DNA of 64,000 nucleotides from a phage, in the sequence record PZ452583.1. One strand, 5' to 3'. The position numbers and the translations under genes were made by a program. This document shows positions 43,046-45,835 of this stretch, in pieces. Each line of letters begins with the position of its first letter. The first letter of the stretch is position 1. A model generated the notes under the pieces. The model searched no databases. It was not told the DNA's origin and saw nothing but the letters and a program-made list of their open reading frames with translations.

Positions 43046-43519
43046 TTATTTGATTTGTTTAGCAGACCAAATGCGGTCTTTAATAATTTTTTGGATGTCT
43101 TCAACATACTCAAGAGAGTGAGCATGTGGGTTATCTTTGAAACTATAAGCACGAGCTAGCTTTTGGCCTTCAGTTTTGATTACTAAAAGCTCTTTAAGGA
43201 TAGCTTCATATTTGGAGATAATTCCTTTAACAATATTTTTCTCTTGTGCGACTTTAGGATCTGCTTTAGGAGCAGGTTTACCTGAAGCCTTTGCAAAAGC
43301 AGCGCCAGTAGCAACTAAACTTTTCCAGGCCATACTAACAGCATTCCCCGTAAATCCTTCTGCTTTCATGTCGCGAGCAAATTGGAATCGTGATTCATCA
43401 GAAGCATCTTTATAGGAATATTTACCCGCTGCAATGGCTGCTTTTGCGACAGCTTGAATTTCGGTGCTAGACGCTTCATTTAACACCGCTTCATTTAAAA
43501 ATTGAGCATATGATTTCAT
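43046..43519 (-). CDS. Internal-protein-like (capsid-targeting sequence) protein, late-promoter driven
   Basis: ORF track 157 aa; N-terminus MKSYAQFLNEA fits the CTS pattern; TATAAATA late-promoter octamer on the minus strand at plus 43556..43563. Confidence 0.6.
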   Translation of the reverse strand: MKSYAQFLNEAVLNEASSTEIQAVAKAAIAAGKYSYKDASDESRFQFARDMKAEGFTGNAVSMAWKSLVATGAAFAKASGKPAPKADPKVAQEKNIVKGIISKYEAILKELLVIKTEGQKLARAYSFKDNPHAHSLEYVEDIQKIIKDRIWSAKQIK

Positions 43520-43555: not shown

Positions 43556-43563
43556 TATTTATA
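43556..43563 (-). promoter_or_regulatory. Late-promoter octamer TATAAATA upstream of the internal-protein-like gene
   Basis: Plus-strand tatttata at 43556..43563, about 37 nt upstream of the ATG at 43519. Confidence 0.5.
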
Positions 43564-43565
43564 CT

Positions 43566-43593
43566 AAAAAGCCCCAACCTTTCGGCTGGGGCT
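43566..43593 (-). terminator. Intrinsic terminator (long stem, GAAA tetraloop, U5), copy B
   Basis: Minus strand AGCCCCAGCCGAAAGGUUGGGGCUUUUU; near-identical to copy A at 43011..43038. Confidence 0.6.
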
Positions 43594-43904
43594 AAGCCTT
43601 GCGGCAACCTTGTCGGGGTTCCACCTGCTAAGGCAAGTGTTTGTACGAAACGCCGGGATTCGAACCCGGTTATCAAGCAGTTGACGCTACTCAATATTTT
43701 TAAAAGGCCATATCTCGACCATATCCGAACGTTCCGTCAAAAACGCTACTCGGCTTACGGCAAAGATATTTCCTCGAATCGATAATTCGGTGCGCCGTTT
43801 CTGCTGTGATATAAGGGGACATTAACAAAACATAAAGATTTATTAATGCCAGTCCTTAAACAGGGAACATCAGTCCGACGACTTACCGGTAGCGACCCGG
43901 TTTC
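43594..43904 (-). ncRNA. Candidate structured non-coding RNA region downstream of the tRNA operon (contains a tRNA-like T-arm)
   Basis: About 310 nt with no ORF of 60 aa or more on either strand, between the 43905..44255 gene and terminator copy B; minus strand contains CCGGGUUCGAAUCCCGG (plus 43651..43667). No acceptor stem or CCA found, so not a canonical tRNA. Confidence 0.25.
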
Positions 43905-44255
43905 TTAATATTCTTTTAAAGCATCAATCTGTTCACGGCGTTTACGCCATAAATCAATTGCTTCATACGCAGATTCAGCATTTCGAATTAGCCGGCATTT
44001 ATGTAAAGACTTATGATTTTGATATTGTGTAGATAATGGAATTGTATCTAAAAGGTCTTTACGATCAAAGTATTCGTAACCATCTAAACCAAATGAACGA
44101 TTTTTGAGAAATTGCCAATGGCCAAATTCATTTTCAACATAAACATAATCTGCATGCTGATAAAGTAAATTAATTACACGTTCAGAAATAACAGTATCAT
44201 TATGATTAAAATAGAATGTTAAATCATGAACTACTAAATAAACATTACCTTTCAT
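43905..44255 (-). CDS. Hypothetical protein
   Basis: ORF track 116 aa; ATG 44255 preceded by GAGGAAAA, 18 nt downstream of tRNA-Arg. Confidence 0.55.
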   Translation of the reverse strand: MKGNVYLVVHDLTFYFNHNDTVISERVINLLYQHADYVYVENEFGHWQFLKNRSFGLDGYEYFDRKDLLDTIPLSTQYQNHKSLHKCRLIRNAESAYEAIDLWRKRREQIDALKEY

Positions 44256-44273: not shown

Positions 44274-44349
44274 TGGTCGAGGCAGTAGGGATCGAACCTA
44301 CGACCTAGGACTTAGAAGGTCCTTGCTCTTCCTTCTGAGCTATGCCCCG
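44274..44349 (-). tRNA. tRNA-Arg (anticodon UCU)
   Basis: Hand-folded cloverleaf from reverse complement: T-arm GUAGG-UUCGAUC-CCUAC, anticodon loop CUUCUAA, encoded CCA. Confidence 0.8.
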
Positions 44350-44353
44350 TAAT

Positions 44354-44429
44354 TGGGGTGACCGATGGGAGTCGAACCCATGACTACGAGAATCACAATC
44401 TCGAGTTCTACCAACTGAACTACGGCCAC
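44354..44429 (-). tRNA. tRNA-His (anticodon GUG)
   Basis: Hand-folded: acceptor GUGGCCG/CGGUCAC, D-stem GUUC/GAAC, anticodon stem CGAGA/UCUCG with loop UUGUGAU, T-arm AUGGG-UUCGACU-CCCAU, discriminator C, CCA; no encoded G-1. Confidence 0.65.
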
Positions 44430-44543
44430 ATTAATATCTACTCCAACAATCATGATGTCTTCACACGAAATTAAGAGAAGAGTGATCAGTTAAACCCTTA
44501 TAATCGCGTCAAGTAGATATTAATGTGACAGTTGTCACAAATT

Positions 44544-44618
44544 TGGCGGACGTGATAGGATTCGAACCTATAACCAATCGCTTAACAGGCGATCGCTCTG
44601 CCATTGAGCTACACATCC
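44544..44618 (-). tRNA. tRNA-Asn (anticodon GUU)
   Basis: Hand-folded: acceptor GGAUGUG/CACGUCC, anticodon stem AUCGC/GCGAU with loop CUGUUAA, T-loop UUCGAAU, CCA. Confidence 0.7.
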
Positions 44619-44622
44619 AAAT

Positions 44623-44709
44623 TGGTGGGGAGTGGTGGAGTCGAACCACCCGAGTCGCAATGACAATGAATTTACAGTCCACACCGCTACCTCTACGGGA
44701 TAACTCCCC
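44623..44709 (-). tRNA. tRNA-Tyr (anticodon GUA), type II with long variable arm
   Basis: Hand-folded: acceptor GGGGAGU/ACUCCCC, anticodon loop CUGUAAA, variable arm hairpin, T-arm GGUGG-UUCGACU-CCACC, CCA; anticodon stem has two G-U pairs. Confidence 0.6.
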
Positions 44710-44721
44710 TAATTCATAATT

Positions 44722-44796
44722 TGGTGGCCCTGGGTGGAATTGAACCACCATCTGGCGATTATGAGTCGCTTGCTTGAACCTTCCAGCTACAGGGCC
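44722..44796 (-). tRNA. tRNA with CAU anticodon (Ile by analogy to T4 tRNA-Ile; Met by anticodon alone)
   Basis: Hand-folded: acceptor GGCCCUG/CAGGGCC, anticodon loop CUCAUAA, T-arm GGUGG-UUCAAUU-CCACC, CCA. Confidence 0.7.
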
Positions 44797-44797
44797 T

Positions 44798-44873
44798 TGG
44801 TGCTGATTGACGGAATCGAACCGCCGACCTTCTCATTACAAGTGAGTTGCTCTACCTACTGAGCTAAATCAGC
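44798..44873 (-). tRNA. tRNA-Thr (anticodon UGU)
   Basis: Hand-folded: acceptor GCUGAUU/AAUCAGC, D-stem GCUC/GAGC, anticodon loop CUUGUAA, T-loop UUCGAUU, CCA. Confidence 0.75.
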
Positions 44874-44878
44874 AAAAC

Positions 44879-44968
44879 TGGCGGAGGCGATAGGATTTGA
44901 ACCTATGAGTCGCCGGAGCGACTGCCGGTTTTCAAGACCGGTGCATTAAACCACTCTGCCACGCCTCC
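44879..44968 (-). tRNA. tRNA-Ser (anticodon UGA), type II
   Basis: Hand-folded: acceptor GGAGGCG/CGCCUCC, anticodon stem CCGGU/ACCGG with loop CUUGAAA, long variable arm, T-loop UUCAAAU, CCA. Confidence 0.75.
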
Positions 44969-44970
44969 AG

Positions 44971-45044
44971 TCTCCATACAAGGATTTGAACCTTGGACCT
45001 CCTGATCCCAAATCAGGCGCTCTACCAAACTGAGCTACACGGAG
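44971..45044 (-). tRNA. tRNA-Pro (anticodon UGG), CCA not encoded
   Basis: Hand-folded: anticodon stem CCUGA/UCAGG with loop UUUGGGA, T-arm CAAGG-UUCAAAU-CCUUG; 3' end abuts tRNA-Ser (Pro-Ser dimeric arrangement as in T4). Confidence 0.75.
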
Positions 45045-45054
45045 TAAATTAAAT

Positions 45055-45128
<74 letters not shown>

Positions 45129-45133
45129 AAATT

Positions 45134-45220
45134 TGGTGCGAGAAGTGGGACTCGAACCCACAAGGAAATCATTCCGCAGCATTTTAAGTGCTGTGCCTTT
45201 ACCAATTTGACCATTCTCGC
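45134..45220 (-). tRNA. tRNA-Leu (anticodon UAA), type II
   Basis: Hand-folded: acceptor GCGAGAA/UUCUCGC, anticodon stem CAGCA/UGCUG with loop CUUAAAA, long variable arm, T-arm GUGGG-UUCGAGU-CCCAC, CCA. Confidence 0.75.
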
Positions 45221-45226
45221 GTTATA

Positions 45227-45835
45227 TTATTTATTACGTGAAAAAGACTGTTCTATCAATTCTGGACACTTTCGTTCTATCCATTTTCTAGCTTTTTGTG
45301 GGCTTATACCTATTATTTTAGCAGCTTTACTAACCCATCCAAATTTAGAATAATCGATTTTAACTAATTCTTCGTAAATTTCATTAGTTAAAATCTTTTC
45401 ATTAATATTTACCAGTAAATGATATAATTTGTTATCATTAGCAATTTTAATGAATCTTTTATAGTTTCCGCCTTTACTTAAACCTAATGAAGTAATTGCA
45501 GATGATATAGTAGCCGAATTTAATAATGCGTTTAAAATTTCTTCATCACTAACATTATAACGCTTTTTATTATTTTTAATATTTTTACCAGCAAAAGTAT
45601 CAGTTTGCGAATGACAGTTTGGACATAATAATCTTAAATTTGATTTAAGATGATTTTTGTTATTTCCATCAATATGGTCTAATTGCAGAACAATATGCTT
45701 ATTTTGCCATTTTGAAATTTTACAAATTGCACACTCATATGGAAAAATATTTTCTTTTATTATTTTGTCTTTCAGCTTTCCTGTACTAAAATTTGGATGT
45801 TTTCCTTCAAAAATTTCAGCTAATTTAGTATCCAT
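45227..45835 (-). CDS. HNH homing-endonuclease-like protein (free-standing, adjacent to tRNA array)
   Basis: Track ORF 45227..45859 (TTG); supported start ATG 45835..45833 (MDTKLAEIF); HNH core LDHIDGNNKNHLKSNLRLLCPNCH with paired Cys (CAIC...CPNC). Confidence 0.7.
   Translation of the reverse strand: MDTKLAEIFEGKHPNFSTGKLKDKIIKENIFPYECAICKISKWQNKHIVLQLDHIDGNNKNHLKSNLRLLCPNCHSQTDTFAGKNIKNNKKRYNVSDEEILNALLNSATISSAITSLGLSKGGNYKRFIKIANDNKLYHLLVNINEKILTNEIYEELVKIDYSKFGWVSKAAKIIGISPQKARKWIERKCPELIEQSFSRNK

What the first reader, a model, noticed from the sequence alone, without database searches (positions are those of the whole stretch)
43594..43904. About 310 nt of non-coding sequence downstream of the tRNA operon with a tRNA-like T-arm, ending at a strong terminator
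No ORF of 60 aa or more on either strand in a genome that is otherwise tightly packed. The minus strand contains CCGGGUUCGAAUCCCGG (perfect T-stem-loop) without a recognisable acceptor stem or CCA, and the region ends at the GAAA-tetraloop terminator at 43566..43593. This looks like a tRNA-derived or tRNA-like stable RNA (compare T4 species 1/2 RNAs), possibly a decoy or processing substrate.
Basis: partly seen in the sequence, partly recalled or inferred. Interest (0 to 1): 0.5.

Follow-up and report, generated by a model that had tools for sequence, protein, structure and literature searches.

The report
Phage T4 small RNAs C and D
This non-coding stretch holds this phage's copies of two small stable RNAs of phage T4 (RNA D, then the tRNA-shaped RNA C) that have been known since the 1970s but whose function has never been found, so the finding is real but not new.

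Summary
There is no ORF of 60 aa or more, a perfect T arm lies at 43653..43669 (-) with 0 expected by chance, and an intrinsic terminator lies at 43593..43570. The stretch is three things, not one. First comes the orthologue of T4 rnaD (species 2 RNA, about 43908..43788). Second comes the orthologue of T4 rnaC (species 1 RNA, 43782..43644; 97.8% identical to T4, 98.5% to RB69). Third comes a 3' trailer ending at the terminator. GenBank records for T4 and RB3 annotate rnaD and rnaC at the aligned positions. Rfam has no family for either. Function is unknown in every paper I could read.

New here:
- RNA C has a covariation-supported cloverleaf-like fold (51 pairs, 94.5% paired, 32 with compensatory change).
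- The tips of its two non-tRNA arms are complementary (UUGACG/CGUCAA) and co-vary in two lineages.
- RNA C and RNA D are separate modules. In other genera each sits alone between tRNAs.
- A published adaptive mutation in phage BW-1 restores a base pair in RNA D's tip. This suggests RNA D matters on some hosts.

Verdict: already known entity; modest interest.

The parts
43788..43908 (-). RNA D (orthologue of T4 rnaD, species 2 RNA), about 119-121 nt. The ends are transferred from the T4 and RB3 annotations and are uncertain by 1-3 nt. The 3' end reads CACCG here, against CACCA in T4 and RB3.
   Evidence: Alignment to annotated T4 and RB3. Identity is 96.6% to RB3, 92.4% to RB69 and 85.8% to T4. 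735 phage records match.
43885..43901 (-). RNA D 5' hairpin: 5-bp stem (ACCGG/CCGGU) with the 7-nt loop GUCGCUA.
   Evidence: RNAalifold consensus. The outermost pair co-varies between A-U and G-C in 4 of 16 sequences.
43807..43862 (-). RNA D variable tip hairpin. Its sequence comes in several types among phages while the flanking core is invariant. The BW-1 adaptive mutation maps to the equivalent hairpin.
   Evidence: 8 of 16 pairs with compensatory change. (BW-1 mapping).
43790..43882 (-). RNA D core helices. The closing helix pairs 43882..43876 (GUCGUCG) with 43797..43790 (CGGCGCAC). An inner 4-bp helix pairs 43869..43866 (UGUU) with 43805..43802 (AGCA).
   Evidence: The inner helix has a U-A to A-U swap in dhakaviruses and a U-G to C-G change in UP19. 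The closing helix never varies, so it is predicted by energy only.
43783..43787 (-). Spacer AAUUA between RNA D and RNA C.
43644..43782 (-). RNA C (orthologue of T4 rnaC, species 1 RNA), 139 nt by transfer of the T4 and RB3 annotation. It is tRNA-shaped.
   Evidence: Alignment to annotated T4 and RB3. Identity is 97.8% to T4 and 98.5% to RB69. 748 phage records match, 681 of them at 95% or more. MFE z-score is -3.8. The covariance model gives 159.8 bits, the only hit in the window.
43775..43781 (-). RNA C acceptor-stem 5' strand CGAUUCG. It pairs with 43652..43646.
   Evidence: Pair 3 is G-C in 17 and A-U in 9 sequences. The two U.U positions are U-A and C-G in Tegunavirus.
43705..43774 (-). 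RNA C long arm (70 nt) in the position of a tRNA D arm. Its tip loop UUGACG lies at 43740..43735.
   Evidence: 19 of its 23 pairs show compensatory change. The sequence is almost wholly replaced in Karamvirus, Gelderlandvirus and Marfavirus while the pairing is kept.
43697..43704 (-). RNA C conserved A-rich single-stranded linker (UUUAAAAA; the AAAAU core is near-invariant).
43671..43696 (-). RNA C third arm: a 10-bp stem with the 6-nt loop CGUCAA (43686..43681) in the position of an anticodon arm. The loop is the reverse complement of the long-arm tip loop.
   Evidence: 8 of 10 stem pairs co-vary. The loop-loop helix pairs in 100% of cells across 26 distinct sequences and has compensatory changes in Tegunavirus (UUGAUG/CAUCAA) and Marfavirus (UUGGCG/CGCCAA).
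43653..43669 (-). RNA C T arm: 5-bp stem with the canonical loop UUCGAAU.
   Evidence: unique, 0 expected by chance. (2 of 5 pairs co-vary, 100% paired).
43642..43652 (-). RNA C acceptor-stem 3' strand CGUUUCG (43652..43646), unpaired U at the discriminator position (43645), then ACA (43644..43642) where a tRNA would have CCA.
   Evidence: The triplet is ACA in most, UCA in Tegunavirus and CCA in Klebsiella phage Kpn BM7.
43594..43643 (-). 3' trailer with small hairpins. It is conserved with T4 and RB3. In phages lacking RNA C it follows RNA D directly.
   Evidence: (z = -4.15 including the terminator).
43565..43593 (-). Intrinsic terminator of the tRNA/small-RNA transcription unit: 10-bp stem, GAAA loop and U run.
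   Evidence: Conserved in T4 and RB3.

Best explanation
The stretch encodes this phage's copies of the two classical small stable RNAs of bacteriophage T4, in the order RNA D (species 2) then RNA C (species 1), followed by a trailer and the terminator of the tRNA transcription unit. Both are passengers of the tRNA operon. They are transcribed with the tRNAs and are most likely cut out by the host's tRNA-processing enzymes (inferred). RNA C is a four-arm, tRNA-shaped molecule. It keeps a 7-position acceptor stem, a canonical T arm and a single unpaired base after the stem. Together these form the half of a tRNA that RNase P, 3' trimming enzymes, the CCA-adding enzyme and T-loop modification enzymes recognise. 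Its decoding half is replaced by a 70-nt arm and a 10-bp arm whose tip loops are complementary and very probably pair with each other, so no anticodon is on display. RNA D is not tRNA-shaped. It has an invariant core (a 5' hairpin plus two helices) carrying a tip hairpin that differs between phage lineages. Function (inferred, about 0.3 probability): both act as protein-binding structured RNAs that matter only on certain hosts. RNA C would mimic a tRNA to engage a tRNA-binding host or phage factor. The leading candidate role is countering a host defence. The identity part of this statement is near certain. The processing route is inferred from layout and from what is established for T4. The function part is a hypothesis.
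For: Identity: the stretch aligns without rearrangement to T4 and RB3, where rnaD and rnaC are annotated at the aligned positions. RNA C is 97.8% identical to T4 and RNA D is 96.6% identical to RB3. The published T4 RNAC northern-probe template is identical to the first 58 bases of the window's RNA C. Non-coding: there is no ORF of 60 aa or more. Structure of RNA C: in 26 distinct sequences from at least 9 phage genera or lineages, 51 pairs are 94.5% paired, against 36-47% when partners are slid. 32 pairs show compensatory change against 6-9 when slid, and 0 of 500 shuffles reach the observed values. The loop-loop helix is 100% paired with two independent compensatory events. Strong constraint: 681 of 748 records are at least 95% identical in RNA C, including 98.5-98.6% to RB69, which is a different genus. 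Operon-passenger layout: in Karamvirus, Moonvirus, Gelderlandvirus, Tegunavirus and Erwinia phages RNA C lies 6-9 nt from a tRNA on each side. In Providencia phage PSTCR6 RNA D lies between tRNA-Arg and tRNA-Ile with gaps of 7 and 3 nt. RNA C is preceded by U at position -1. Discrete stable RNAs: T4 RNAC and RNAD were classified as late-accumulating, validated by a northern assay (an RNAC probe is described) (PMC9697503). Host-dependent role: the only mutation shared by three BW-1 lines adapted to E. coli ECOR34 raised virulence from 0.17 to 0.98 (PMC12685909). It maps to RNA D position 74 and changes A to G. This restores a C-G pair present in all 6 other phages with that tip type, and the hairpin energy goes from -0.7 to -5.8 kcal/mol. 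Context: T-even tRNA clusters are known to carry counter-defence functions, for example phage tRNA-Tyr against Septu (PMC13096335). Phage-specific: neither RNA's signature occurs in 185,579 bacterial and archaeal species genomes.
Against: No experiment on this phage is available, so transcript ends, stability and CCA status are transferred from T4. Function is stated as unknown in every paper found. The loop-loop pairing rests on two compensatory events only, and it could be intermolecular (dimer) rather than intramolecular. RNA C is absent from dhakaviruses and several other lineages, and RNA D is absent from many genera, so neither is essential. The BW-1 result is one SNP in one phage on one host. 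The authors read it as regulatory and did not test RNA D function. It could act through transcription or processing of neighbouring genes rather than through RNA D itself. RNA D's closing helix never varies, so it has no comparative support. Nothing found here identifies a binding partner.
Confidence: 0.85

Rival explanations
1. The stretch encodes one or more short proteins, as many GenBank records annotate ('hypothetical protein' over this region).
For: Automated annotations place 1-3 hypothetical proteins over the homologous region in many phages. ORFs of 53 and 42 aa with TTG starts exist on the minus strand.
Against: There is no ORF of 60 aa or more and no ATG start. Substitutions are of the paired, compensatory kind that preserves helices, not reading frames. 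In other genera the homologue is wedged 6-9 nt from a tRNA on both sides, leaving no room for translation signals. In T4 the products are detected as RNAs by northern blot.
Confidence: 0.02
2. RNA C is a decayed pseudo-tRNA and RNA D is spacer sequence. Both would be evolutionary debris of the tRNA cluster with no function of their own.
For: RNA C has a T arm and acceptor stem but no anticodon loop and no encoded CCA. Some pipelines call part of it 'tRNA-Lys' or 'tRNA-OTHER'. Each RNA is missing from some lineages.
Against: RNA C is 98.5% identical between this phage and RB69, a different genus, and at least 95% identical in 681 of 748 records. 32 pairs are kept by compensatory change, including in the non-tRNA arms. 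Loop sequences, the A-rich linker and the 3' tail are conserved across genera. The BW-1 adaptive mutation repairs an RNA D helix.
Confidence: 0.04
3. The RNAs work only in cis. They would be processing, stability or termination modules that help the upstream tRNAs mature or protect the transcript's 3' end, and the stable products would be by-products.
For: In this phage and in T4 they sit at the 3' end of the tRNA transcription unit, just before the terminator. Structured 3' modules can block exonucleases (general knowledge). The BW-1 authors favour a regulatory reading.
Against: In most other genera RNA C is internal to the array, between tRNA-Trp (or tRNA-Met) and tRNA-Gly, and not at its end. 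A cis role does not explain conserved loops that pair with each other, or a canonical T loop. The products accumulate as discrete stable species late in T4 infection.
Confidence: 0.1
4. RNA C is charged with an amino acid and acts in translation or a related reaction, in the manner of a tmRNA-like or otherwise unusual tRNA.
For: It has an acceptor stem, a T arm and a single unpaired base. An N-C-A triplet follows that base, and it is a true CCA in Klebsiella phage Kpn BM7. The weak sub-threshold tRNA-Sec match is 16.4 bits.
Against: ARAGORN and Rfam find no tRNA or tmRNA here. The arm in the anticodon position has a 6-nt loop that is complementary to another loop of the same RNA. There is no G3:U70 (pair 3 is A-U or G-C) and no tag reading frame. 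The acceptor stem has two U.U mismatches in most members.
Confidence: 0.05

Closest known systems
Bacteriophage T4 rnaC (species 1 RNA, RNA C)
   Same: It has the same sequence (97.8% identity over the full length), the same place after rnaD and before the terminator of the tRNA cluster, and the same length (139 nt by annotation transfer).
   Different: There are only three base differences from T4. Nothing functional distinguishes it. It is an orthologue.
Bacteriophage T4 rnaD (species 2 RNA, RNA D)
   Same: It has the same invariant core and the same position upstream of rnaC. It is 96.6% identical to RB3 rnaD and 85.8% to T4 rnaD.
   Different: The tip hairpin is the RB3 type rather than the T4 type. 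The 3' end reads CACCG, not CACCA. In T4 and RB3, rnaD abuts tRNA-Arg, whereas here a 116-aa ORF lies between them, so the 5' end cannot arise from tRNA-Arg 3' processing alone.
tRNA-like domain of tmRNA
   Same: In both, the acceptor stem is formed by the 5' and 3' ends, there is a canonical T arm, the D arm is replaced, and the rest of the molecule is closed on itself by tertiary pairing.
   Different: RNA C has no encoded CCA, no G3:U70 alanine identity pair, no tag reading frame and no pseudoknot ring. It is not detected by ARAGORN or Rfam tmRNA models.
Bacterial Y RNA-like YrlA (Rfam RF02553) and other tRNA mimics such as mascRNA or plant-virus tRNA-like structures
   Same: These are non-decoding RNAs that copy the acceptor/T-arm half of a tRNA and are handled by tRNA enzymes or bound by tRNA-recognising proteins. 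This is the general way I think RNA C works.
   Different: No sequence or model match exists (the only YrlA hit is sub-threshold and lies on real tRNAs). The architecture of the non-tRNA half differs. No Ro/Rsr-type partner is known in T4-like phages.

Membership tests
T4 rnaC (species 1 RNA) | Full-length sequence homology to the T4 rnaC gene | tested here: met
   134 of 137 aligned positions are identical to T4. The window aligns to annotated rnaC in T4 and RB3.
T4 rnaC (species 1 RNA) | Location in the phage tRNA cluster, directly after rnaD and before the cluster's terminator | tested here: met
T4 rnaC (species 1 RNA) | tRNA-like fold with T arm and acceptor stem | tested here: met
   Covariation analysis.
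T4 rnaC (species 1 RNA) | Accumulates as a discrete stable RNA of about 140 nt during infection | not testable with these tools
   Shown for T4 by northern blot (PMC9697503). There are no expression data for this phage.
T4 rnaD (species 2 RNA) | Sequence homology to annotated rnaD | tested here: met
   96.6% identity to RB3 rnaD and 85.8% to T4 rnaD. The core is invariant and the tip is variable.
T4 rnaD (species 2 RNA) | Location immediately downstream of tRNA-Arg and upstream of rnaC | tested here: inconclusive
   It lies upstream of rnaC with the same 5-6 nt spacer. However, a 116-aa ORF separates it from tRNA-Arg, as in RB69, BW-1, OE5505 and others.
T4 rnaD (species 2 RNA) | Accumulates as a discrete stable RNA of about 120 nt | not testable with these tools
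   Reported for T4. Not available for this phage.
Canonical tRNA (Rfam RF00005) | Detected as a tRNA by ARAGORN or by the Rfam model at its gathering score | tested here: not met
   ARAGORN finds 10 tRNAs, none in 43594..43908. Rfam finds none at gathering. At E up to 10 there is only a tRNA-Sec match of 16.4 bits against a cut-off of 47.
Canonical tRNA (Rfam RF00005) | 5-bp anticodon stem with a free 7-nt anticodon loop | tested here: not met
   The stem is 10 bp and the loop is 6 nt. The loop is complementary to, and co-varies with, the tip loop of the long arm.
Canonical tRNA (Rfam RF00005) | 3' CCA end, encoded or added | tested here: inconclusive
   ACA is encoded in the window. UCA occurs in Tegunavirus and CCA in Kpn BM7. 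Post-transcriptional addition cannot be tested here.
tmRNA | Detected by ARAGORN or Rfam tmRNA models, with a G3:U70 pair and a tag-peptide reading frame | tested here: not met
   No tmRNA call was made. Pair 3 is A-U or G-C in all 26 sequences.
YrlA / bacterial Y RNA | Match to Rfam RF02553 | tested here: not met
   The only match (17.7 bits against a cut-off of 69) lies at 44324..44386, on the tRNA-His/tRNA-Arg genes and not in the finding.

The most novel reading that the evidence does not exclude
RNA D, and by extension RNA C, are phage counter-defence RNAs. They would be structured passengers of the tRNA operon that neutralise or evade a host immunity factor found in some E. coli strains such as ECOR34. 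RNA D's lineage-specific tip hairpin would act as the specificity element. RNA C would act as a self-locked tRNA mimic that occupies a tRNA-recognising host protein. This would finally give a function to two RNAs that have had none for some 50 years.
Probability: 0.2. Interest if true: 0.8.

Novelty: already known. Interest (0 to 1): 0.3.

Why it matters
As a genome feature it is ordinary, because every close relative of T4 carries these genes. It matters only because RNA C and RNA D are among the oldest orphan RNAs in molecular biology, and no curated model (Rfam) exists for them. As a result, annotation pipelines miss them or mis-call them as hypothetical proteins or odd tRNAs. The comparative results here give a usable structural model for each RNA. 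They show that the two are independent modules spread over many phage genera. They also point to an existing experimental system, phage BW-1 on E. coli ECOR34, in which RNA D appears to have a phenotype. That turns 'function unknown' into something that can be tested directly.

Tried and rejected
- Rfam at gathering and at E up to 10 found no family for either RNA.
- ARAGORN found no tRNA or tmRNA in the stretch.
- A viral-contig pattern scan with a mis-set gap returned nothing and was repeated correctly.
- A metagenome scan used a pattern fixing only the T arm and 3' tail, so as not to bias the loops. It returned eight T4-type copies plus unrelated sequences. The weaker covariance-model hits (36 to 17 bits) turned out to be ordinary tRNA-Cys genes or unclear, so they were not accepted as distant homologues.
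- Bacterial and archaeal genome scans for RNA D's core and RNA C's 3' signature returned nothing.
- Literature searches for the classical biochemistry found nothing readable. This covered the Paddock and Abelson sequence, the 'p2Sp1' precursor and the Miller 2003 review. Statements about RNase P processing and mature ends of the T4 RNAs therefore rest on my recollection and are marked as inferred.
- Searches for a described phage tRNA-like decoy gave no direct precedent.
- I considered that RNA C's loop (C-GUC-AA) might mimic a tRNA-Asp anticodon loop, or that RNA C descends from tRNA-Cys because of the unpaired U. I dropped both. The loop is 6 nt and pairs with another loop, and the acceptor-stem resemblance is out of register.
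- I considered an alternative pairing of RNA D (CUGAUG with CAGCAG) and rejected it, because the dhakavirus changes break it while they preserve the UGUU/AGCA register.
- Pfam found nothing for the two flanking ORFs. PHROGs placed them in families of unknown function.

Full report
**What is there.** The window carries a T4-type tRNA array of ten tRNAs on the minus strand (44274..45220). A 116-aa ORF (43905..44255) follows it, and then comes the flagged stretch. No ORF of 60 aa or more overlaps 43594..43904 on either strand. The motif CCGGGTTCGAATCCCGG occurs once, at 43653..43669 (-), with zero matches expected by chance. A terminator with a 10-bp stem, a GAAA loop and a T run lies at 43593..43570.

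**Identity.** A BLAST search of the stretch against 50,697 phage records finds 806 records, 680 of them covering at least 80% of the query. Almost all are T4-like phages of enterobacteria. In phage RB3 (97.7% identical) the matching DNA is annotated rnaD and rnaC. The T4 reference record shows the same two genes directly after tRNA-Arg: 'small, stable RNA; species 2 RNA' and 'species 1 RNA'. A three-way alignment is collinear from the start of rnaD to the terminator. Transferring the annotations gives these coordinates, all on the minus strand:
- RNA D: about 43908..43788
- Spacer: 5 nt
- RNA C: 43782..43644
- Trailer: 43643..43594

RNA C is 97.8% identical to T4 and 98.5% to RB69. RNA D is 96.6% identical to RB3 and 85.8% to T4.

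[quoted passage not shown] A 2022 transcriptome study classifies them as late-accumulating RNAs 'of yet unknown functions', validated by a northern assay. A 2025 paper again calls their functions unknown (PMC12685909). Rfam 15 has no family for them. Nothing in the stretch reaches a gathering score, and the best sub-threshold hit is tRNA-Sec at 16.4 bits on the 3' part of RNA C. The classical sequencing and processing papers are not in the searchable library. From memory, T4 species 1 and 2 derive from a common precursor cut by host tRNA-processing nucleases. I treat that as background, not as evidence.

**Structure of RNA C.**
- I collected 26 distinct RNA C sequences. They come from Tequatrovirus, Mosigvirus, Kanagawavirus, Moonvirus, Tegunavirus, Gelderlandvirus, Karamvirus, Marfavirus and Erwinia phages.
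- The consensus fold is a four-arm cloverleaf. It has a 7-position acceptor stem, a 70-nt arm in the D-arm position, an A-rich linker, a 10-bp arm in the anticodon-arm position, and a canonical T arm directly abutting the acceptor 3' strand.
- On the model-guided alignment, 51 pairs are 94.5% paired against 36-47% when partners are slid. 32 pairs show compensatory change against 6-9 when slid, and no shuffle out of 500 reaches the observed values. The independent MAFFT alignment gives the same picture.
In Tegunavirus both become Watson-Crick pairs, and pair 3 switches between A-U and G-C.
- After the stem comes one unpaired U and then ACA. This triplet is UCA in Tegunavirus and a true CCA in Klebsiella phage Kpn BM7.

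**A loop-loop pairing.** The tip loop of the long arm (UUGACG, 43740..43735) is the exact reverse complement of the loop of the 10-bp arm (CGUCAA, 43686..43681). All six positions can pair in all 26 sequences. Two lineages changed both loops together: Tegunavirus to UUGAUG/CAUCAA and Marfavirus to UUGGCG/CGCCAA. Both flanking stems co-vary strongly, so the hairpins are real, and the complementarity most likely makes a kissing contact that locks the two arms. A dimer contact is not excluded. The support is two events, which is suggestive rather than conclusive. The consequence is that the arm in the anticodon position does not present a free loop. RNA C keeps the half of a tRNA that enzymes grip and discards the half that decodes.

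**Structure of RNA D.**
- Sixteen distinct sequences give four elements: a 5' hairpin, a closing helix near the 3' end, a short inner helix, and a tip hairpin that exists in several unrelated sequence types.
- Overall, 94.3% of cells are paired against 29-56% when slid. Ten pairs show compensatory change against 1-4 when slid. The closing helix never varies, so it is only an energy prediction.
- RNA D is not tRNA-shaped.
- The CCA that ends T4 RNA D is not conserved. The window and many others have CCG, and some have CAG.

**Independent modules that ride in tRNA operons.**
- In Karamvirus, Moonvirus, Gelderlandvirus, Tegunavirus and Erwinia phages, RNA C sits inside the array. It typically lies between tRNA-Trp and tRNA-Gly with 6-9 nt on each side, and there is no RNA D.
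- In Providencia phage PSTCR6, RNA D sits alone between tRNA-Arg and tRNA-Ile.
- Dhakaviruses and several other contigs have RNA D followed directly by the trailer. The junction reads ...CACCG|AACACTTGCC, which is exactly where other phages carry AATTAT plus RNA C.
- Neither RNA's signature occurs in 185,579 bacterial and archaeal species genomes.
- This layout, together with the U just before RNA C's acceptor stem, fits release by RNase P and 3' trimming. That step is inferred.

**A functional hint for RNA D.** Phage BW-1 has the same gene order as the window. [quoted passage not shown] Virulence rose from 0.17 to 0.98. The authors placed the SNP in rnaD and judged that it did not drastically alter the fold. 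Mapping it shows that it is A-to-G at RNA D position 74, inside the tip hairpin. All six other phages with this tip type have G there. The ancestor's A breaks a C-G pair. With G the hairpin is restored (-0.7 to -5.8 kcal/mol), and the whole-molecule prediction returns to the family fold. The adaptive change is therefore a repair of RNA D. I read this as the first indication that an intact RNA D is needed on some hosts. It is indirect, because a cis effect on neighbouring genes is not excluded. Separately, the T-even tRNA cluster is already known to supply counter-defence functions, for example tRNA-Tyr against Septu (PMC13096335).

**Rivals.**
- Protein-coding, as many automated annotations say: this is contradicted by the ORF content, the helix-preserving substitution pattern and the tight tRNA flanks.
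- Decayed pseudo-tRNA: this is contradicted by the extreme conservation and the covariation in the non-tRNA arms.
- Cis-only processing module: this is weakened by RNA C's internal position in other genera and by the accumulation of the products.
- Chargeable tRNA- or tmRNA-like role: there is no free anticodon loop, no identity pair and no model match.

**Verdict.** The finding is real and correctly interpreted in outline, but it is an already known pair of genes. The added value is a tested fold for each RNA, a probable loop-loop lock in RNA C, their modular distribution, and a re-reading of a published mutation that offers a phenotype for RNA D.

Noticed in passing
window 44430..44543 (-): The 114-nt spacer between tRNA-Asn and tRNA-His is conserved across genera. 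352 phage records cover it, and it is about 81% identical in Klebsiella phages, where it lies between tRNA-Gln and tRNA-His. It folds significantly (z = -3.8) into a small hairpin plus a long hairpin closed by a 13-bp stem that ends 1 nt before tRNA-His. That stem shows two compensatory changes against Erwinia phage COW86c and Klebsiella phage KaAlpha. It is unannotated and may be a third structured passenger RNA of the tRNA array. It also contains UUGACG, the same hexamer as RNA C's tip loop, which may be chance.
   Followed up: partly
window 43905..44255 (-): A 116-aa ORF (PHROG 3355, unknown function, no Pfam match) lies between tRNA-Arg and RNA D, and its stop codon overlaps the start of RNA D. 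The same ORF is present in RB69 (ORF150c), BW-1, OE5505, slur03 and SG1. It is absent from T4 and RB3, where tRNA-Arg abuts RNA D.
   Followed up: partly
window 43556..43563 (-): The T4 late-promoter consensus TATAAATA sits immediately after the terminator's T run. It is 37 nt upstream of the 157-aa ORF 43046..43519 (PHROG 2280, unknown function). Across the whole window the motif is no more frequent than chance (11 found, 10.4 expected), so only the position is suggestive.
   Followed up: no
window 45221..45480 (-): Unlike T4 and RB3, this phage has no tRNA-Gln in front of tRNA-Leu. A coding region runs up to about 20 nt before tRNA-Leu. The array instead contains tRNA-Met, Tyr, Asn and His, which T4 lacks.
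   Followed up: no
L084, L088-L091, L027-L029 versus window 43783..43643: RNA C behaves as a clean presence/absence cassette. Phages without it join RNA D to the trailer at ...CACCG|AACACTTGCC, and phages with it have AATTAT plus RNA C plus AA at that point. The absence occurs with several different RNA D tip types, which suggests repeated loss, gain or recombination.
   Followed up: partly
L003, L012, L019 (Kanagawavirus) and L073 (Klebsiella phage Kpn BM7): Kanagawavirus RNA C has a non-canonical T loop (UGCAUGC instead of UUCGAAU) while the rest is conserved. Kpn BM7 RNA C is the only one with a genuine CCA after the unpaired U.
   Followed up: no
GenBank records matching window 43560..43910: Most deposited genomes leave RNA C and RNA D unannotated or cover them with 1-3 'hypothetical protein' calls. 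A few call the 3' part of RNA C 'tRNA-Lys' or 'tRNA-OTHER'. Only the RB-series, T4 and a few other records name rnaC and rnaD.
   Followed up: no
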